From assembly GCA_050294475.1 (NCBI GenBank), contig JBNKOE010000005.1:11176-75175 (forward strand): a stretch of 64,000 nucleotides of DNA. The letters run 5' to 3'. Each line of letters opens with the position of its first letter. Position 1 is the stretch's first letter. Below, one piece after another: positions 5,232 to 64,000 of the stretch. This DNA comes from Algibacter sp. Its GTDB lineage: Bacteria; Bacteroidota; Bacteroidia; Flavobacteriales; Flavobacteriaceae. The translations under genes and the position numbers were made by a program. The notes beneath the pieces are model-generated. The model ran no database searches, had not been told where the DNA came from, and saw nothing but the letters and a program-made list of their open reading frames with translations.

Positions 5232-6032
5232 ATGAATACACCTAACAAGGATACAACTAAAAAGAAAAAATTTAACTACGATAAAGAACTAGCCATATTA
5301 CATGAAGATTTAGTTCATCTTCAAGAATGGATAAAGAAACAAGGTTTAAAAGTGGTTATCATTTTTGAAGGTAGAGATGCCTCTGGCAAAGGAGGCACAA
5401 TTAAACGATTTACCGAACCTTTAAACCCTAGAGTTTGTAAAGTAGTAGCTTTAGGCATTCCTACCGAAAAGGAAAAAACACAATGGTATTTTCAACGTTA
5501 TGTACAGTATTTACCAGCAGCAGGCGAAATGGTGCTTTTTGATAGAAGCTGGTACAATAGAGCAGGTGTTGAAAAAGTTATGGGTTTTTGTACTGATGAA
5601 GAGTATAATGAGTTTTTACGCTCTTGCCCTGAGTTTGAGCGTATGTTAGTGCGGTCTGGAATTATTGTTTTAAAATACTGGTTTTCGGTAAGTGATGAAG
5701 AGCAGGAACGGCGTTTTAAAAACCGTATAAGCAATCCATTAAAACGCTGGAAATTTAGTCCAATGGATTTAGAATCGCGTTCCCGTTGGTTAGAATACTC
5801 TAAAGCAAAAGATAATATGTTTGCACATACTGATACCAAACAAGTACCTTGGTTTGTTGTGAATGCCGATAACAAGAAAAAGGCGCGTTTAAATTGTATT
5901 AGCCATGTTTTAAGTCAGATTCCTCATGAAAAAATGGATTTAAAACCTGTTGAACTTCCTGATTTACCAGACTATAAAAGTTATGTGCGACCACCAATAA
6001 ATTATCAAACGTTTGTTCCTGAGAAATATTGA
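5232..6032 (+). CDS. ppk2: Polyphosphate kinase 2
   Basis: FEGRDASGKGGTIKR Walker A, FDRSWYNRAGVE, WKFSPMD. Confidence 0.96.
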   Translation: MNTPNKDTTKKKKFNYDKELAILHEDLVHLQEWIKKQGLKVVIIFEGRDASGKGGTIKRFTEPLNPRVCKVVALGIPTEKEKTQWYFQRYVQYLPAAGEMVLFDRSWYNRAGVEKVMGFCTDEEYNEFLRSCPEFERMLVRSGIIVLKYWFSVSDEEQERRFKNRISNPLKRWKFSPMDLESRSRWLEYSKAKDNMFAHTDTKQVPWFVVNADNKKKARLNCISHVLSQIPHEKMDLKPVELPDLPDYKSYVRPPINYQTFVPEKY

Positions 6033-6077
6033 ATAAACTTGATTTTGTAAAAATTTTCAGCTACCTTCGTTTAACAT
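5762..6077 (+). repeat. Direct repeat copy 1 (ppk2 3' end plus 45 bp downstream)
   Basis: Matches 8308-8623 at offset 2546 with about 6 mismatches in 316 bp by manual comparison. Confidence 0.95.
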
Positions 6078-6146
6078 TAGCTCTAAAAAAAAGAACTTTC
6101 ACTTCCCACCCACTCCAAGAATAATATTTACGAAAAATGAAATTAT

Positions 6147-6175
6147 TGTCCCAAATAATTGCTAAATTTGGGACA
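6147..6175 (+). promoter_or_regulatory. Inverted-repeat operator overlapping the -7 promoter element of the abiE-like operon
   Basis: TGTCCCAAAT-N9-ATTTGGGACA perfect IR; TAAATTTG (TAnnTTTG) at 6163-6170. Confidence 0.7.
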
Positions 6176-6189
6176 TAAATTATCAAACA

Positions 6190-6783
6190 ATGACTAAATC
6201 AGTTCAAACTAGAATTGAAAACGAAATAAAGTCAATGAAAAAAGGGAGTATTCTATTCCCTTCGAACTTTGATGATATGGGAAATGTTGAAGTTGTAAAG
6301 AAATCATTATTACGACTTGAAAACAAAAAATTCTTAGTAAGACTAGCTCATGGAATCTATTTATACCCAAAACAAGACAAGCTTTTAGGGGTTTTATATC
6401 CGACAATAGAAGAAATTGCAATTGCAATTGCTGAACGAGATAAAGCACGAATTATCCCAACTGGAACAACAGCTCTTAATAAATTAGGATTATCAACTCA
6501 AATTCCAATGAATATTGTTTTCTTAACTGACGGAGCTCCAAGAAATATTGTGGTTGGTAAAAGAACAATAAAATTTAAGCGTACATCTCCAAAAAACTTA
6601 GCTGTAAAAGGAGAAATTACAAGTTTAATTATTCAAGCTCTTAAGGATATAGGAAAGGACAATGTAACAGCAGAGCAATTAGAAAAAATTAAAATACATC
6701 TTGAAAAAGAAAAACAAGAAATAATAGAGCATGATGCTAAACTAGCTCCTGTTTGGATATCAAAAATTATGAAGAATAATTAA
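6190..6783 (+). CDS. DUF6088 / AbiEi-like antitoxin (type IV TA)
   Basis: N-terminal wHTH (KSLLRLENKKFLVRLAHGIYLYP), ALNKLGLSTQIP...FLTDG; directly upstream of an AbiEii-type gene. Confidence 0.8.
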   Translation: MTKSVQTRIENEIKSMKKGSILFPSNFDDMGNVEVVKKSLLRLENKKFLVRLAHGIYLYPKQDKLLGVLYPTIEEIAIAIAERDKARIIPTGTTALNKLGLSTQIPMNIVFLTDGAPRNIVVGKRTIKFKRTSPKNLAVKGEITSLIIQALKDIGKDNVTAEQLEKIKIHLEKEKQEIIEHDAKLAPVWISKIMKNN

Positions 6784-6785
6784 AT

Positions 6786-7784
6786 ATGAAAGCGTTTATA
6801 AATCTTAGCAAAAAAGATAAACTGAACATATTCAATCAAGTCAGTGAAAGAACTGGATTTCCATCTTCTGCTGTTGAAAAAGATTGGTGGGTAACTTTAG
6901 CATTAAATATTATTTTTTCATTGTCTTATTCAAACCATATTGTTTTTAAAGGAGGAACATCTTTGAGTAAAGCATGGAATTTAATTGAACGTTTTTCAGA
7001 AGATATCGACTTGGTAATTGATAGAAAACATTTAGGTTTTGAAGGCGAATTAAGTAAAAATCAAGTTAAAAAATTACGTAAAGCATCTTGTTCCTTTATT
7101 GGAAGTGAATTTTATAAAGATATCAATGATGCTTTAATTAAACTAGGTGTTCCAGATTATGAATTAGTTGTTCAAGAAACAAAAGATACAGATACTGATC
7201 CCTTAGTTATTGAATTACGATATAAATCTTTAACAGAAACATCCGACTATTTAAGACCTAGAGTACTAATAGAAGTTAGTGCACGTTCCTTAATGGAGCC
7301 TGTAGAAAACAAAGCCGTTATTTCTATGGTTTCTGAGGAATTTAAAGAACTTCCCTTTGCAGAAACAGAAGTAACAATACCTGTTGTTTCTCCTAAGCGA
7401 ACCTTTTTGGAGAAGATATTTCTATTACATGAAGAGTTCCAAAAAGACACAAAATTTATACGAGTAGAAAGAATGAGCCGACACTTGTATGATTTAGAAA
7501 AACTTATGGATACAATTCACGGTACAGAAGCTTTGAAAGATGTTAAATTATACAATACAATTGTAACACACAGAAAGAACTTTAATGCCGTAAGAGGAAT
7601 TGACTACGCAAACCATAGCCCTCAATTAATTAATATTTCACCACTAGAAGCAACAATTAAAGAATGGAGAAAAGATTATAAGACCATGCAAGAAAGTATG
7701 TTTTATGGAGGTACCATTAGTTTTGATAAACTAATGGAACGCATTGCAGAGTTGAATACTAGAATTAAAACAATTTCATTATGA
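6786..7784 (+). CDS. AbiEii/AbiGii-family nucleotidyltransferase toxin
   Basis: EKDWWV, VFKGGTSLSK, RFSEDIDL, RTFLEKIFLLHE, RHLYDL motifs. Confidence 0.9.
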   Translation: MKAFINLSKKDKLNIFNQVSERTGFPSSAVEKDWWVTLALNIIFSLSYSNHIVFKGGTSLSKAWNLIERFSEDIDLVIDRKHLGFEGELSKNQVKKLRKASCSFIGSEFYKDINDALIKLGVPDYELVVQETKDTDTDPLVIELRYKSLTETSDYLRPRVLIEVSARSLMEPVENKAVISMVSEEFKELPFAETEVTIPVVSPKRTFLEKIFLLHEEFQKDTKFIRVERMSRHLYDLEKLMDTIHGTEALKDVKLYNTIVTHRKNFNAVRGIDYANHSPQLINISPLEATIKEWRKDYKTMQESMFYGGTISFDKLMERIAELNTRIKTISL

Positions 7785-8228
7785 ATGAAAACGAAATAAG
7801 AGAAGAACTCACCAGAGTTATAGCCGAAGATTCTCAAAACATTGATGAAATTCTAAAACTATCACATAAACTTGCTGCTCTTGATAACGACAGTGTCCGA
7901 TTTAGTGTAGATGTAAGTGTTATTGATAGATTTAGGAACAGAATTGGTTGCGAGACACGAAACTGCTGTTTCTAAATTAATTAAAAATTACTATGATGCT
8001 GATGCAAAATCGGCACCAATTAATTTTTTAAATGTAGATAATATTGGAGGAACTTTAATAATAGAAGATAACGGGAATGGAATAACCAGAGACCAATTAG
8101 TTAATGGTTTCATGAAAATTTCTTCTACTTCAAAAATTCATGAACCCGAATCGCCCATTTTTAAAAGAAAAAGAGCCAGTAAAAAGGAATTGAACGATTT
8201 TAAACACAAAGATCGGGTAATAAACTGA
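7781..8228 (+). pseudogene. Frameshifted, truncated GHKL (HATPase_c_3/MORC-like) ATPase
   Basis: Two ORF pieces join as RFSVDVSVIDR/LGTELV..AVSKLIKNYYDADA..IEDNGNG; the expected GKKGIGRF box has decayed to SKKELNDF and the frame stops soon after. Confidence 0.8.
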
Positions 8229-8307
8229 CGATAATAACACAAACAAAGGAGACTAATTTTGCTCTGAAAGTATTTCAGAAGAATTTGGAGGTATTCGGCT
8301 TTACAGA

Positions 8308-8578
8308 AATGGATTTAAAATCGCGTTCCCGTTGGTTAGAATACTCTAAAGCAAAAGACAATATGTTTGCACATACTGATACCAAACAAGTACCTTGGTT
8401 TGTTGTGAATGCCGATAACAAGAAAAAGGCGCGTTTAAATTGTATTAGCCATGTTTTAAATCAGATTCCTCATGAAAAAATGGATTTAAAACCTGTTGAA
8501 CTTCCTGATTTACCAGACTATAAAAGTTATGTGCGACCACCTATAAATTATCAAACGTTTGTTCCTGAGAAATATTGA
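8308..8578 (+). pseudogene. ppk2: ppk2 3' fragment
   Basis: Encodes the last ~89 aa of Ppk2 (MDLKSRSRW...FVPEKY) without the Walker motifs. Confidence 0.9.
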
Positions 8579-8623
8579 ATAAACTTGATTTTGTAAAAAT
8601 TTTCTACTACCTTCGTTTAACAT
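8308..8623 (+). repeat. Direct repeat copy 2 (duplicated ppk2 3' end)
   Basis: About 98% identical to 5762-6077. Confidence 0.95.
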
Positions 8624-8625
8624 CA

Positions 8626-8662
8626 GATATAAAACATTAAAACAATTTCATATCAAGTTGTT
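8626..8662 (+). other. Degenerate attI-like / secondary insertion site
   Basis: ACAATT-TC-ATATCAAGTTG|TT resembles ACAATT-GTCT-ATATCCAATTG|TT at 63762-63784. Confidence 0.55.
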
Positions 8663-9293
8663 GTAACACATTTAACCAAACCAAGAAACTTAATATTTAT
8701 GAAGAAAATTTTACCAATCATTATTGTCGGAATTATAACTGGAGCAATCGGATTTTTTGCTGGAAAAACAGTTGGATATGACGAAGCTGAAAGAATGCAA
8801 AGTTATCGAAGTGTCGAATCTATTAAATCGGACTTAAAACAACGTGAAACTAAAATGATTTCGACTCTATTAAACGGAACTGCACGAATTGAAACGCGAA
8901 ATGAAGGCGGACTTTTTAGCAGTAAAAAATCGAAATATCTGACTGGTAAAATTCTAAACAACGCTTTAGTTGCGAAAGCAAAAGATGTGAAAGTAATTGT
9001 GACATTTTTATCCAAAACAAAATCGGAAATTGGAAAAGCGGAATTTACTATTTACGAATATATTGAACCTGGAAAGTCGCAATCTTTTGAGAAGAAAGTA
9101 AATGTCTCTCAAGATGTGGCTGAATTTAGCTGGAATATTGTAGATGCAAAAGCGGAATAAAAACGTGTTACAACAATGTATAAAAATAATTGCGGTTTAG
9201 TTCTTAATCAAAGGTAGTTACGTGTTTGATACGTCTGAATTTCCTTCGGAAATTCCTCGCACGCAAACCCGCAACTATTCTTATACGAGACCG
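8661..9293 (+). mobile_element. Solo integron-like gene cassette
   Basis: Starts G|TTGTAACAC (8660-8669), the exact reverse complement of GTGTTACAAC (9165-9174) after its stop codon; ends at G9293|TT. Confidence 0.85.
8699..9160 (+). CDS. Cassette-borne hypothetical membrane-anchored protein (C-terminal Ig-like/FxLYD-like domain possible)
   Basis: N-terminal TM segment; GKILNN..AKDVKVIVTF..YEYIEPGKSQSF pattern. Confidence 0.75.
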   Translation: MKKILPIIIVGIITGAIGFFAGKTVGYDEAERMQSYRSVESIKSDLKQRETKMISTLLNGTARIETRNEGGLFSSKKSKYLTGKILNNALVAKAKDVKVIVTFLSKTKSEIGKAEFTIYEYIEPGKSQSFEKKVNVSQDVAEFSWNIVDAKAE

Positions 9294-9300
9294 TTAAACG
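9165..9300 (+). repeat. attC-like site A
   Basis: TTACAAC-AAT-GTATAAAAATAATTGCGG ... CCGCAACTATTCTTATAC-GAGACC-GTTAAAC; 18-bp stem with 2 mismatches; R' fits GTTRRRY. Confidence 0.85.
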
Positions 9301-9303
9301 AAC

Positions 9304-10002
9304 CTAATAAAATTCAGCCTCAAAAAGCACACTAAAATGTTTCAATAACTTTTCTTTAACCTCAGCTTCATCAACCCTTTGTTGCCCTAACTCTACATTT
9401 AAAGAAGTAACGGCTTTACCACGAATACCACAAGGTATAATATTATCAAAATAACCTAAATCGGCATTTACGTTAAGCGCAAAACCATGCATAGTTACCC
9501 AACGGCTAGCTCGTACACCCATAGCACAAATTTTACGAGCAAATGGTGTACCAACATCTAACCAAACACCTGTTTCACCTGAGCTTCTTTCAGCTTTTAA
9601 ACCATATTCGGCAAGCGTAAGAATAATCATTTCTTCAAGTAAGCGTAAGTATTTATGTATATCGGTAAAAAAGTTTTCTAAATCTAAAATTGGATATCCT
9701 ACAATTTGCCCAGGACCATGATAGGTTATATCGCCTCCCCTATTAATTTTGTAAAAAGTAGCTCCTTTTTCGACAAGTTGTTGCTCGTTTAAAAGCAAAT
9801 TAGATAAATCGCCACTTTTACCCAAAGTGTAAACATGAGGATGCTCTACAAATAAAAAATAATTATTAGTCTTTAAATTAGTATTGTCTTTTCTGTTTTT
9901 AATTTTGGCATCAACAATACCTTTAAACAACTGCTCTTGGTATTCCCAAGTTTGTTTGTAATCATTAAAACCTAAATCTTGCAGTTTAATTTGCTTATTC
10001 AT
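9304..10002 (-). CDS. lipB: Lipoyl(octanoyl) transferase
   Basis: [46 protein letters not shown]. Confidence 0.96.
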
Positions 10003-37843: not shown

Positions 37844-37945
37844 ATAAAAAATAATGACTCTAATTCAGATTTAAGCAATTATGTTAATTTTAAGAATGAA
37901 AAAGAACCAACCACTATTAATTTAGGAATTGGAATTGAATTATAA
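37844..37945 (+). pseudogene. 3' remnant of a cassette ORF
   Basis: Startless frame ...DLSNYVNFKNEKEPTTINLGIGIEL* ending 1 nt before attC-like site B. Confidence 0.45.
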
Positions 37946-37946
37946 C

Positions 37947-38080
37947 GTATGCTAACACAGTATCAAAAATCGCTAATTTTATCCTAAACCAATGTTAGTA
38001 GCTTTGCTTGCTTACGATTTTACTTCGAAAAATACTCGCACACAAACCCGCACTATTCTTATACAATCACGTTGCATGTA
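37947..38080 (+). repeat. attC-like site B (left arm decayed)
   Basis: TGCTAAC-ACA-GTAT... ; right part TACTTCGAAAAATACTCGCACACAAACCCGCACTATTCTTATAC-AATCAC-GTT closely matches site A. Confidence 0.8.
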
Positions 38081-38101
38081 ATTTGAACAAATTAAATATA
38101 A

Positions 38102-39064
38102 ATGAAAAAATTAAATCTGATTTTATTGGTGTTAATCCCAATATTAAGTTTCGGACAAACTGAAAAAGAAACTAACAAAAAGATTTCTGCTGAATTTGAA
38201 AAACACTTCAATTCAGATGAATATCAAAAGATTTTTGACTTGTTTTCGCCTGAAATGAAAAGTGCCTTACCAATTGAACAAACGACTGACTTTTTAAAAG
38301 GACTGAAAAGTCAGACAGGAAAAATTAAAAAAAGGGAATTTATAAAATATGAGCAGACTTATGCCTCTTATAAGACAATCTTTGAACGAACTATTTTTGC
38401 AGTAAATATATCACTTGACAATAATGCAGAAATCAATGGTCTTTTTGTAAAACCTTTTAAAGAAGATAATCTTCCCAAACTTGAAAGAAATAAAACGAAA
38501 CTGGTTTTGCCGTTTAATAGTGAGTGGACAGTAATTTGGGGCGGAGACACTAAAGAATTAAACTATCACGTAGAAAGCGAAGCTCAAAAAAACGCATTCG
38601 ATATTGTAATTACAGACAAAAACGGAAAAACCTTTAAAACAGACGGAAAAACAAACGAAGATTATTATGCTTTTGGAAAAGAATTTATTGCACCTTGTGA
38701 TGCAGAAGTGGTTTTAGCGGTTGACGGAATAAAAGACAACACACCTGGAGAATTAAATCCTATTTACATTCCAGGAAATACTGTAATTTTAAAAACAGAA
38801 AATGACGAATATTTATTCTTTGCTCATTTCAAACAAAATTCGATTGTCGTAAAACAAGGACAAAAAATAAAACAAGGAGAATTATTAGGGCTTTGTGGAA
38901 ATTCCGGAAATTCTTCAGAAGCTCATTTACATTTCCACATTCAAAATGTGGAAGATATAAACAAAGCGACTGGAGTAAAATGTTATTTTGACGAAATAAT
39001 TGTGAATGGAGAATTGAAAAAAGACTATTCGCCAATAAAAGGAGAAGAAATTAAAAACAAATAA
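38102..39064 (+). CDS. Cassette 1: exported M23 peptidase with N-terminal DUF3887-like domain
   Basis: Signal peptide; AFDIV, FAHFKQ, GNSGNSSEAHLHFH. Confidence 0.85.
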   Translation: MKKLNLILLVLIPILSFGQTEKETNKKISAEFEKHFNSDEYQKIFDLFSPEMKSALPIEQTTDFLKGLKSQTGKIKKREFIKYEQTYASYKTIFERTIFAVNISLDNNAEINGLFVKPFKEDNLPKLERNKTKLVLPFNSEWTVIWGGDTKELNYHVESEAQKNAFDIVITDKNGKTFKTDGKTNEDYYAFGKEFIAPCDAEVVLAVDGIKDNTPGELNPIYIPGNTVILKTENDEYLFFAHFKQNSIVVKQGQKIKQGELLGLCGNSGNSSEAHLHFHIQNVEDINKATGVKCYFDEIIVNGELKKDYSPIKGEEIKNK

Positions 39065-39068
39065 AAAC

Positions 39069-39207
39069 TACTGGCAGCAATGGTTATAAGTAATTGCCTG
39101 TTCTCGCCTACTTCTAAAAATACTCGCAGATTTTTAGCTTAGGTGTGTACTTGCAGAGTTAAGTGCTAGACTACGCAACTACTCATAGCCAAACCATTGG
39201 CGTTAAT
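39069..39207 (+). repeat. attC-like site C (both cores mutated)
   Basis: CTGGCAGC-AAT-GGTTATAAGTAATTGC ... GCAACTACTCATAGCC-AAACC-ATTGGCGTTA; AAC changed to AGC and GTT to ATT. Confidence 0.8.
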
Positions 39208-39242
39208 TTTGGAAACAAACTGCAAAATTGAAAACACATAAG

Positions 39243-63051: not shown

Positions 63052-63449
63052 AAAAGAAAGGAGTATATTAAAAAGCACATATCTTTTCTAAGATTTAATC
63101 TTGTAAGTTTTCAATTTTGAAACATTTTAAACCGAGTAAATATATATAATATAAATGCATAAGCAAAGTGGATAACAAAAAAAAAGCGATATTTCTATCC
63201 TACCAATTTAATTTGAAATTTCCAGTTTTTAACCCATTACCTGTAACTGGTAATTTAATAGTTCCTATTTCATTTAAAGGTTAAACTATCACATAAATAT
63301 TGTAGACAGAACACATCATGCCATAGTTGAAACTGAGTGTTTTTTAACAAGATATTTATTGTTTAACTATTTAAATTTCATTTTCTAATTTACTCTACCA
63401 CCTTCAAATTTTTTCACTACGTGGAATTATCCAATGACCCTGTGTATAA

Positions 63450-63740
63450 AATCACAAAGAATACTGTCCCAACAAATATCTATTTGAAGGACAAAAAGGA
63501 AACAAATATAGTGTTACAAGTGTTTTAAATATTATTTCTACAGCAGCTAAAAAAGCTGGAATTTATAAAAAAGTAACACCACACATGCTAAGGCATAGTT
63601 TTGCGACACACCTATTAGAAAACGGAACAGATATTAGGCATATACAAATATTACTAGGACATAGTTCTACTAAAACGACAGAAATTTACACACATGTAGC
63701 AAATAAATCGTTTATGGAAATAAAAGATTTACTATCTTAG
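63450..63740 (+). pseudogene. 5'-truncated tyrosine recombinase (integron-like integrase)
   Basis: Manual translation [19 protein letters not shown]...[42 protein letters not shown]; in-frame TAA at 63447; absent from the ORF track. Confidence 0.9.
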
Positions 63741-63752
63741 TTTTTTATAATG

Positions 63753-63793
63753 TGGATATAGACAATTGTCTATATCCAATTGTTGCCAGTAAT
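63753..63793 (+). other. Candidate attI-like recombination site
   Basis: Perfect 26-bp palindrome TGGATATAGACAATTGTCTATATCCA, then ATTG|TTGCCAGTAAT; G at 63782, 42 nt after the integrase stop. Confidence 0.65.
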
Positions 63794-63807
63794 GTAAACC
63801 AATCTTC

Positions 63808-64000
63808 ATGCTGAAAGGATTATTTAAGAAAAAAACACCTGTAGAAAAGTTTATGGCTCATTTGGATAGAATTTTCCAAACCGAACCTGAATATTACAAA
63901 GAAGAATCAGAAACGGATGGAATTGCTGGAGTTACAAGCATAGTTTATAAAGATATTCCTGAAAAAGGAATGATAACTGGAATTACATACGGACTTTCAC
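63808..64000 (+). CDS. First-cassette ORF, partial; SUFU-like (suppressor-of-fused domain) protein possible
   Basis: MLKGLFKKKTPVEKFMAHLDRIF...YKDIPEKGMITGITYGLS runs off the window; the TYGLS motif suggests SUFU. Confidence 0.55.
   Translation, partial: MLKGLFKKKTPVEKFMAHLDRIFQTEPEYYKEESETDGIAGVTSIVYKDIPEKGMITGITYGLS

What the first reader, a model, noticed from the sequence alone, without database searches (positions are those of the whole stretch)
8626..8662. Solo-cassette insertion site resembles the integrase-adjacent site
8641-8660 AACAATT--TCATATCAAGTTG aligns to 63761-63782 GACAATTGTCTATATCCAATTG with 15 of 20 identities, in register with the crossover G. An upstream GATAT at 8626 also mirrors ATATC at 8650. 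This links two loci 55 kb apart, either as a secondary target chosen by similarity or as a decayed att site whose recombinase was lost. AT-richness raises the chance of a coincidental match.
Basis: partly seen in the sequence, partly recalled or inferred. Interest (0 to 1): 0.68.

Follow-up and report, generated by a model that had tools for sequence, protein, structure and literature searches.

The report
Repeated landing pad for gene cassettes
The flagged sequence is the left junction of a mobile gene cassette that inserted into a small hairpin-forming docking site, one of at least ten copies in this marine flavobacterium's genome, which suggests that an integron-like gene-capture system here uses many scattered docking sites rather than one array.

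Summary
8641-8660 aligns to 63761-63782 with 15/20 identities, anchored on the G of G|TT. Only 6 of 2739 GTT sites in the window match as well.

The segment 8661-9293 is a genuine mobile cassette. It carries a 153-aa ORF and a 133-nt attC-like hairpin. It belongs to an integron-like system run by a Xer-type (non-IntI) tyrosine recombinase, common in Flavobacteriaceae and resembling rAID-1 of Bacteroidales.

The interpretation needs correcting. The target is not a random secondary site, and it is not a decayed recombinase-adjacent site.
- It is the 3' part of an ~80-nt element (8581-8660).
- That element has at least 10 further copies in the same genome.
- Each copy examined is followed, right after GTT, by a different cassette start.

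Rejoining the cassette's two flanks gives a short attC-like imperfect palindrome. Its outer boxes differ between three independent loci but stay complementary (GTTTAAC/GTTAAAC, GCTTATC/GATAAGC, GCTTAAC/GTTAAGC).

Its inner stem (GATAT...ATATC), spacer and G|TT resemble the hairpin that follows the recombinase stop codon in 80 related genomes. I infer that both are substrates of the same enzyme. This is a new variant of a known kind.

The parts
8581..8660 (+). One copy of a multi-copy ~80-nt element, the landing pad. It ends at the crossover G (8660).
   Evidence: Contig depth over 8582-8660 is 350-545 against a baseline of 23 in run X1, and 800-1850 against 67 in X2. At least 10 separate contigs of organism-matched depth carry it. 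They diverge just after 8662-8666. Homologous copies are in L106, L115 and L094.
8585..8615 (+). Promoter-like part of the element: TTG (8585-8587), 20 nt, then TACCTTCG (8608-8615). It resembles the Bacteroidota -33/-7 consensus TTG...TAnnTTTG. This is an inference only.
   Evidence: The same spacing and boxes are seen in W, L106 and L115 (alignment). The pattern is not enriched in the window. No RNA data were available.
8612..8622 (+). Left outer box of the split site (R''-like; GTTTAAC at 8615-8621). It is complementary to 8659-8660 plus 9294-9302.
   Evidence: Inverted repeat I4. The reconstructed empty site folds with an 11-bp outer stem. Compensatory variants occur in L106 and L117.
8626..8634 (+). 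Inner stem, 5' arm (L''-like): GATATAAAA.
   Evidence: It pairs 8/9 with 8646-8654. It resembles the 5' arm GATATAGACAA of the recombinase-adjacent hairpin.
8646..8654 (+). Inner stem, 3' arm (L'-like): TTTCATATC.
   Evidence: No variant is listed for 8636-8660 among the paralogous copies, whereas variants are listed in the 5' arm.
8655..8662 (+). Spacer AAGTT followed by the crossover triplet GTT (G at 8660 | TT at 8661-8662).
   Evidence: The same cassette in runs X5 and X6 matches from 8660 onward, with different sequence upstream. In X6 that upstream sequence is the end of another attC...TATACGAGACC. Paralogous copies of the element diverge after 8662-8666.
8661..9293 (+). Mobile gene cassette, 633 nt.
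   Evidence: Its start GTTGTAACAC is complementary to GTGTTACAAC at 9165-9174. The same unit is present at about 98% identity in unrelated metagenomes, bounded at the same ends. Its cargo protein is 94% identical in Mariniflexile sp. AS56, where it sits in a different context.
8699..9160 (+). Cassette ORF of 153 aa with an N-terminal hydrophobic segment. No family match.
   Evidence: Only 12 homologues were found among 5.8 billion proteins.
9161..9293 (+). attC-like site of the cassette: R'' at 9165-9174, L'' at 9178-9198, L' at 9266-9286, spacer GAGACC at 9287-9292, G at 9293.
   Evidence: nhmmer E = 2e-26 against a model built from attC sites in recombinase-linked arrays of other genera. It forms a hairpin with one extra G in the 3' arm, and the bottom strand folds better (-19.9 against -17.4 kcal/mol).
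9294..9304 (+). Right half of the split target site (TTAAACGAACC).
   Evidence: It is complementary to 8610-8621 (I4). The same right junction, CCG|TTAAAC, is found in T. citreus L094.
6033..6090 (+). Truncated second copy of the element (5' half only), behind the full-length ppk2.
63450..63740 (+). C-terminal remnant (about 96 codons) of the Xer-type cassette recombinase. The N-terminal part is deleted or degraded.
   Evidence: Intact relatives have about 375 aa.
63753..63784 (+). Recombinase-adjacent site: a perfect 13+13 palindrome (63753-63778), ATT, then the crossover GTT (G at 63782 | TT).
   Evidence: I13. Fold z = -3.8. The same architecture follows the stop codon in most of the 80 related genome loci (62 pass a strict hairpin filter), with covarying stems.
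63783..64000 (+). Start of the first array cassette (TTGCCAGTAAT...; ORF from 63808). It runs off the end of the window.
   Evidence: Depth drops to single copy after 63782.

Best explanation
The site at 8626-8662 is the inner stem, spacer and crossover point of a short, stand-alone attC-like recombination site. That site forms the 3' part of an ~80-nt element present in at least 10 further copies in this genome.

Before insertion the site read ...TTCGTTTAAC-ATCA-GATATAAAA-(11 nt)-TTTCATATC-AAGTT-G|TTAAACGAA..., an imperfect palindrome.

A circular cassette carrying the 153-aa ORF and its own 133-nt attC-like hairpin recombined with it at G|TT. This left the element's left part at 8581-8660 and its right box at 9294-9304.

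The enzyme is inferred to be the Xer-type tyrosine recombinase whose remnant lies at 63450-63740, or an intact copy elsewhere in the genome acting in trans.

The resemblance to 63753-63784 arises because that recombinase-adjacent site has the same plan: a hairpin with GATAT/ATATC ends, about 5 nt, then G|TT. I infer that it is bound and cut by the same enzyme.

Shown: the cassette boundaries, the multi-copy nature of the element, its repeated use as an insertion point, and the palindromic empty site with compensatory boxes.

Inferred: which recombinase acts, that folded single strands are the substrate, and that the element's 5' half is a promoter that expresses the captured cassettes.
For: 1. 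Cassette identity. The start box and R'' are complementary. The attC matches a model built from array attCs of other genera at E = 2e-26. The same unit, at about 98% identity, is bounded at 8660 and 9283-9295 in the metagenomes X5 and X6, with other attC ends and other cassette starts as neighbours.

2. Multi-copy landing pad. Depth is 15-24 times baseline in two samples, and the depths change together. At least 10 long contigs carry it. After GTT they continue into different cassette-like starts, such as AGCAAACATTTATAAAC, GTGCGTAATATGACC and GTAAGCAAGCTGAAAA.

3. Repeated use in other organisms. L106 has the element followed by a 368-aa hydrolase cassette with an attC at E = 1.5e-26. L115 has the element followed by a three-cassette cluster with no recombinase. 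L094 has a different cassette at the orthologous ppk2-lipB site with the same right junction.

4. Empty-site palindrome with compensatory changes. The outer boxes are TTCGTTTAAC/GTTAAACGAA in W, CGCTTATC/GATAAGCG in L106 and TTCGCTTAAC/GTTAAGCGAA in L117.

5. Resemblance to the recombinase-adjacent site is beyond chance. That site is a conserved, covarying hairpin plus GTT in most of the 80 genomes: 48 distinct hairpins, 90% Watson-Crick pairs against 36% with shuffled partners.

6. Recombinase copies exist elsewhere in the genome.
Against: - No truly empty copy of this particular site was found. Two Thalassobellus species have another gene at the ppk2-lipB position, and more distant relatives lack the synteny.
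- The other copies in this genome were seen only as depth, contig pieces and 30-nt loose ends, not as full sequences. How many are occupied by cassettes is unknown.
- Among the paralogous copies, variants occur in the 5' arm (8629, 8630) without reported compensating changes in the 3' arm. Selection on the inner hairpin is therefore not demonstrated.
- The occupied element as it stands folds no better than shuffled sequence (z about +1).
- The weight-matrix score against true recombinase-adjacent sites is low in absolute terms.
- The promoter pattern is not enriched in the window.
- No recombination was observed directly.
Confidence: 0.8

Rival explanations
1. Chance secondary-site insertion. 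The recombinase inserted the cassette at an arbitrary GTT, as integron integrases do at attG sites, and the resemblance to the recombinase-adjacent site is an accident of AT-rich sequence.
For: Classical integron cassettes insert at sites with only a GWT consensus (preprint 10.1101/2022.09.11.507474). The weight-matrix score of site 8660 is only 2.8 bits, and four other GTT sites in the window score as well or better without carrying a cassette.
Against: The same element is used for different cassettes in at least four loci from three or more organisms, and is present in at least 10 further copies in this genome. Compensatory outer boxes in three loci show a structured site. The sequence match (p about 0.002) and the hairpin (p about 0.015) occur together at a site chosen in advance.
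Confidence: 0.04
2. Decayed recombinase-adjacent site. The site is what remains of a former recombinase-plus-array locus whose recombinase gene was deleted.
For: The stem ends (GATATA...ATATC), the 5-nt spacer and G|TT match the recombinase-adjacent site of this clade. The recombinase at the other locus is itself decaying. An evolutionary origin of the element from such a site cannot be excluded.
Against: The element begins 3 nt after the ppk2 stop codon, and directly after a core-gene terminator in L115. There is no recombinase-derived sequence. There are many copies per genome. The 5' half is conserved across genera and is unrelated to the recombinase 3' end. The palindromic outer boxes are a feature of attC-type sites, which the recombinase-adjacent sites do not show in this form.
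Confidence: 0.06
3. The ~82-nt element is itself a mobile, ORF-less mini-cassette (TTAAAC...G) made of a promoter plus a short attC. On this view the locus is a two-cassette array inserted downstream of ppk2, not a fixed docking site.
For: One contig shows two copies in exact tandem with 82-nt period, joined ...AAGTTGTT|AAACTTGAT. This recreates GTTAAAC, the complement of the internal GTTTAAC (joint 8662 to 8581). The element is bounded by AAC...GTT with 8-bp terminal inverted repeats, AACTTGAT/ATCAAGTT. Multi-copy dispersal needs some mobility mechanism.
Against: In the window the element is preceded by GAATAAAC, not G|TTAAAC. T. sediminis shares the first ~20 nt after ppk2 without the rest of the element. 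The 10-11-bp complementarity reaches into the right flank, beyond a normal 6-7-nt start box. This reading overlaps with the best explanation rather than excluding it.
Confidence: 0.1

Closest known systems
rAID-1 (recombinase-associated acquired interbacterial defence) clusters of Bacteroidales (Ross et al. 2019; preprint 10.1101/471110)
   Same: A XerD-family tyrosine recombinase sits at the 5' end and reads in the same direction as an array of short genes. The genes are separated by conserved repetitive intergenic sequences described as 'reminiscent of integrons'. The same layout is seen in L011, L012 and L022.
   Different: The published description covers gut Bacteroidales. It gives motifs but no crossover point, no site anatomy and no cassettes outside the array. 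Here the hosts are marine Flavobacteriaceae. The crossover is mapped to G|TT, and cassettes also sit at dispersed orphan sites. Identity to the B. fragilis recombinase was not tested.
Classical integrons (IntI, attI, attC)
   Same: Cassettes begin with TT plus the complement of their own R'' box. They end in an imperfect-palindrome site with R''/L''/L'/R' boxes, an extra-helical base and a better-folding bottom strand. The crossover is at G|TT (GAT in L106, which fits GWT). A special site next to the recombinase receives the first cassette.
   Different: The recombinase lacks the IntI-specific insert and scores as XerA-type. It has an extra ~107-aa N-terminal region. It is transcribed toward the array, and its site lies 10-17 nt after its stop codon. 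That site is itself a near-perfect covarying hairpin.
SALIN/CALIN elements and attG insertion (Loot et al.; preprint 10.1101/2022.09.11.507474)
   Same: These are isolated cassettes far from any integrase, inserted at a GWT triplet.
   Different: attG sites are reported to differ in sequence and structure from attI and attC, and to be very numerous. Here the target is a specific, structured, attC-like element that is reused by different cassettes.
ORF-less or promoter-bearing integron cassettes, and multi-copy attC-type repeats of chromosomal integrons such as Vibrio cholerae repeats (named from my own knowledge)
   Same: A short, multi-copy, attC-type palindrome without a gene, possibly carrying a promoter.
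   Different: Those repeats lie inside one large array next to intI. These copies sit in the interior of long, otherwise unique contigs, which suggests they are dispersed.

Membership tests
Classical integron (IntI type) | Integrase of the IntI clade carrying the IntI-specific additional domain | tested here: not met
   The full-length relative (L016, 375 aa) scores 196 bits on TIGR02249, below the 265 cut-off. The match is in two pieces that skip profile positions ~181-244. It passes the XerA-type model NF040815 with 236 bits (cut-off 220) as one piece. The window's remnant aligns to IntI only from residue 28.
Classical integron (IntI type) | attC sites: imperfect palindrome with R''/L''/L'/R' boxes, and a cassette start complementary to its own R'' | tested here: met
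   Window 8660-8669 against 9165-9174 is 10/10 complementary. The stems are at 9178-9198 and 9266-9286, with one extra G. The same holds in L011, L012, L022 and L106.
Classical integron (IntI type) | Crossover at G|TT (GWT) in the R' box | tested here: met
   Independent contexts of the same cassette diverge upstream of G8660 and after TT9295. Contigs of several assemblies end at the GTT next to the recombinase. L106 has G|AT at its right junction. Sequence comparison cannot fix the exact phosphodiester within GTT.
Classical integron (IntI type) | intI transcribed divergently from the array, with attI and Pc upstream of intI | tested here: not met
   The recombinase and the cassettes are on the same strand, and the site follows the stop codon, in all 80 loci.
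rAID-1 (Ross et al. 2019) | 5' XerD-like recombinase more than 44% identical to BF9343_RS08045 | not tested
The family is Xer-like by profile.
rAID-1 (Ross et al. 2019) | Two or more co-directional short downstream genes with conserved repetitive intergenic sequences | tested here: met
   L011, L012, L022 and others: 231 attC-model hits, nearly all downstream of the recombinase on its strand. In the window only the first cassette start is visible.
rAID-1 (Ross et al. 2019) | Cargo dominated by orphan immunity genes, and GC content lower than the flanks | tested here: inconclusive
   The window's cargo proteins have no family match. Cargo seen elsewhere is mixed: DUF4279, DUF7010, HSDR_N, a serine hydrolase, an M23 peptidase. 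The genome is about 30% GC throughout.
SALIN / attG secondary-site insertion | Single cassette with no integrase nearby, inserted at GWT | tested here: met
   The nearest recombinase sequence is 54 kb away and is a remnant. The junctions are GTT.
SALIN / attG secondary-site insertion | Target site unlike attI and attC in sequence and structure | tested here: not met
   The reconstructed target is an attC-like palindrome whose stem and spacer resemble the recombinase-adjacent site.

The most novel reading that the evidence does not exclude
Flavobacteriaceae may carry a dispersed network of orphan docking modules, each a short attC-like site possibly coupled to a promoter, with ten or more copies per genome. 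A Xer-type cassette recombinase would load these in trans. Gene capture would then be spread over many expressed chromosomal sites instead of one integron-style array, and the docking module may itself be mobile as an 82-nt ORF-less cassette.
Probability: 0.4. Interest if true: 0.8.

Novelty: new variant of a known kind. Interest (0 to 1): 0.62.

Why it matters
Integron-like cassette systems run by non-IntI recombinases are known in Bacteroidota only as gene clusters with 'conserved intergenic motifs'. Where the DNA is cut, what the sites look like and whether cassettes leave the array have not been described.

This locus and its relatives give a site-level model:
- a G|TT crossover;
- attC-like hairpins that favour the bottom strand;
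- a covarying hairpin site directly after the recombinase stop codon.

They also show cassettes docking at a repeated orphan site elsewhere in the chromosome.

If the docking modules are functional, three things follow:
- isolated cassettes could spread and possibly be expressed away from the array;
- short-read assemblies of these genomes would break at these points, as seen at 8575 and 63631;
- the whole system becomes testable with simple two-plasmid recombination assays.

Tried and rejected
- Rfam (gathering thresholds) and tRNA scans of the window found nothing.
- A scan for GTT/AAC inverted 11-mers was too noisy in 30% GC DNA. A pure-Python attC finder timed out. Both were replaced by an iterated nhmmer model.
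- Exact look-ups of LipB and of the cargo protein returned only near-identical strains that all carry the cassette.
- LipB relatives at 91% identity have no ppk2-lipB synteny. T. suaedae and T. sediminis have a 162/167-aa ORF at the position. No empty site was obtained.
- In the metagenome pattern scan, 13 of 14 hits were chance matches inside a conserved coding gene. Only L106 was a true copy.
- No further copies of the element were found in the other fetched loci.
- RNA runs held only traces, so no transcription start could be mapped.
- MAFFT misaligned the hairpin constructs, so pairs were counted on centre-anchored arms instead.
- I considered that the AbiE island at about 6091-8302 was a reverse-oriented cassette. 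I rejected this because there is no attC hit and the flank is not hairpin-like.
- I considered that the short recombinase proteins heading the homologue list reflected a recurrent programmed split. I rejected this because 75 of 82 genome loci have an open frame of 280 codons or more.

Full report
**Setting.** The window is about 30% GC. Its LipB is 93-94% identical to that of Thalassobellus species. Near-identical DNA occurs in the assemblies GCA_050287905.1 and GCA_050293945.1. The organism is therefore a marine Flavobacteriaceae close to Thalassobellus.

**Observation.**
- Anchored on the G of GTT and allowing one gap, 8641-8660 and 63761-63782 share 15 of 20 positions.
- Only 6 of 2739 GTT sites in the window reach that level, and the 6 include the two sites themselves.
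- A weight matrix built only from the recombinase-adjacent sites of 19 other genomes ranks the GTT at 8660 as 5th to 7th of 2740. Its score is modest, 2.8 bits against 19.5 for the true site.
- The GATAT/ATATC mirror is part of a 9-bp stem (8626-8634 and 8646-8654, one mismatch) that ends 5 nt before GTT. That geometry occurs at 1.5% of GTT sites.
It was defined from these same two sites.

**The system.** The ORF ending at 63740 is a 96-codon C-terminal remnant of a tyrosine recombinase.
- A scan of one genome per species found 481 relatives, of which 80 loci were kept.
- In 75 of 82 loci the gene is intact at about 375 aa.
- A full-length member passes the NCBIfam XerA-type model. It fails the integron-integrase model because the match skips the IntI-specific insert. 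Its nearest solved structures are XerC-like and XerA.
- In most of these loci the stop codon is followed within 10-17 nt by a near-perfect hairpin, a few bases, GTT, and then a cassette start of the form RNNNNNMAT. Sixty-two loci pass a strict hairpin filter.
- The stems covary. Forty-eight distinct hairpins show 90% Watson-Crick pairs, against 36% with shuffled partners, and three or four pair types occur at most positions.
- Several assemblies break exactly at this GTT.
- Downstream lie co-directional arrays. Each unit starts with GTT plus about 7 nt and ends with the complement of that box, followed by a 130-200-nt imperfect palindrome and the next GTT.
- This is the layout published for rAID-1 clusters of Bacteroidales. 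That work reports a XerD-family recombinase and integron-like intergenic repeats, but not the anatomy of the sites.

**The cassette.**
- The box GTTGTAACAC (8660-8669) is the exact complement of 9165-9174.
- The following hairpin (9178-9198 and 9266-9286, with one extra G) ends TATAC-GAGACC-G|TT at 9293.
- An nhmmer model built from array sites of other genera hits it at E = 2e-26.
- In two unrelated metagenomes the same unit, at about 98% identity, forms contigs bounded at 8660 and 9283-9295. In one it is preceded by another attC end (...TATACGAGACC|G). It is followed by other cassette starts (GTT|GGCAAC..., GTT|GGCGGG...).
- The cargo protein has only 12 homologues. One, 94% identical, lies in a three-cassette cluster of Mariniflexile sp. 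AS56.
- The segment 8661-9293 is therefore a mobile cassette, and 8660|8661 is a true crossover junction.

**The target.** Contigs of the window's own organism pile up on 8582-8660.
- Depth is 350-545 against a baseline of 23 in one sample and 800-1850 against 67 in another.
- At least 10 long contigs of organism-matched depth carry a copy.
- The copies part company just after 8662-8666 into different cassette-like starts.
- A metagenome contig (L106) has a homologous element ending ...TTTCATATCAAGTTG|TT. It is followed by a 368-aa hydrolase ORF and an attC at E = 1.5e-26.
- Mariniflexile sp. AS56 (L115) has a copy just after the terminator of a peptidase gene, followed by three cassettes and no recombinase.
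- T. citreus has a different cassette at the orthologous ppk2-lipB site, with the same right junction CCG|TTAAAC.
- Only 3 of 231 attC hits in about 0.8 Mb of recombinase flanks lie outside arrays. Off-array cassettes are therefore uncommon, and the ones I could inspect sit at this element.

**Nature of the site.** Rejoining the two flanks gives an imperfect palindrome: TTCGTTTAAC-ATCA-GATATAAAA-11 nt-TTTCATATC-AAGTT-G|TTAAACGAA.
- It folds at -9.9 kcal/mol on the top strand and -11.7 on the bottom strand.
- The outer boxes differ between loci but remain complementary: GTTTAAC/GTTAAAC in the window, GCTTATC/GATAAGC in L106, and GCTTAAC/GTTAAGC in L117.
- The target is therefore a short attC-like site with R'', L'', L' and R' equivalents. 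The cassette entered at its R' box.

**Limits.**
- I found no empty copy of this exact locus.
- The other genomic copies were seen only through depth, contig pieces and 30-nt ends.
- Variants in the 5' arm among paralogues are not matched by reported changes in the 3' arm. The occupied element folds no better than shuffles.
- The 5' half carries TTG-N20-TAnnTTCG in three copies, which resembles the Bacteroidota promoter consensus as I know it. The pattern is not enriched in the window, and no RNA data exist. The promoter idea is therefore a weak inference.
- One contig shows two element copies in exact 82-nt tandem, joined GTT|AAAC. This leaves open that the element is itself an ORF-less mini-cassette.
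- Which recombinase copy acts is inferred. The local gene is a remnant, but depth of 2-10 times baseline over 63340-63780, and a contig that extends further upstream, show other copies in the genome.

**Verdict.** The link between the loci is real. The mechanism is insertion of a cassette into an orphan, repeated, attC-like docking site, not chance similarity or a decayed site. The closest known systems are rAID-1, classical integrons, and SALIN/attG insertion. It differs from each in one or more tested features, so I rate it a new variant of a known kind.

Noticed in passing
window 5762-6090 and 8303-8634, with 6091-8302 between: The 3' third of ppk2 plus the first ~56 nt of the element is duplicated at about 97% identity. 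Between the copies lie a DUF6088/AbiEii toxin-antitoxin pair (6190-7784) and a HATPase_c_3 fragment (7917-8228). This looks like a Campbell-type insertion. The left copy of the element loses its hairpin and GTT at about 6080-6090.
   Followed up: partly
window 37942-39213: A second off-array cassette cluster. An attC-like site at 37942-38088 (E = 4e-15) is followed by a DUF3887 + peptidase M23 gene (38102-39064) that starts G|TTGCATG. A second attC-like site follows at 39062-39213 (E = 2.5e-23), whose R'' is degenerate (..GCAGCAAT). No 5' junction or docking element was identified upstream.
   Followed up: partly
window 63340-63780: Depth of 2-10 times baseline and contigs with internal deletions (skips of 82 and 162 nt) indicate several recombinase-derived fragments or copies in the same genome. 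One extends further upstream than the window's remnant.
   Followed up: partly
L115 6296-7965 (Mariniflexile sp. AS56, CP151839.1): A DDE_Tnp_1 insertion sequence sits exactly at a cassette junction (...ATAAACG | IS | GTTGTAACAC...). The same 153-aa ORF and R'' box are followed there by a different, ~200-nt attC body than in the window. This would require exchange within the attC, not only at G|TT.
   Followed up: no
window 9161-9293; L022 10826-10966; reconstructed sites: Mismatches in the attC stems are mostly A opposite C on the top strand, which become G-T wobble pairs on the bottom strand. The bottom strand folds 1.7-2.5 kcal/mol better. This is the same strand asymmetry as in classical attC sites.
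   Followed up: partly
window 63782-63793 and L115 5284-5295; window 8660-8669 and L022 10328-10337: Identical cassette start boxes (GTTGCCAGTAAT and GTTGTAACAC) head unrelated ORFs in different genera. The boxes seem to come in a limited set of types.
   Followed up: no
L013, L016 and L038 recombinases, residues 1-107: Intact recombinases have an N-terminal region of about 107 aa in front of the Xer-like core. It matched no NCBIfam model.
   Followed up: no
L015 and L016, first 75 nt after the recombinase stop: In Mariniflexile sp. HNIBRBA6329 and Flaviramulus basaltis, a half hairpin (TGGATATAGACAATTGTATC) precedes the complete hairpin. The recombinase-adjacent site is partly duplicated in tandem.
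   Followed up: no
L117 3851-3890, 4935-5000 and 5662-5735: A more distant metagenome relative carries the cargo homologue in a cluster with another repeat class (GATTGTTAAAC...TACGTAGAACTACGTA...) and element-like sequences ahead of two genes. It lies next to a T6SS Hcp gene.
   Followed up: no
L005-L007 (contig starts at window 8575) and L001 (contig ends at window ~63631): Public short-read assemblies of this organism break at the docking element and inside the recombinase remnant, as expected for repeated sequences.
   Followed up: yes
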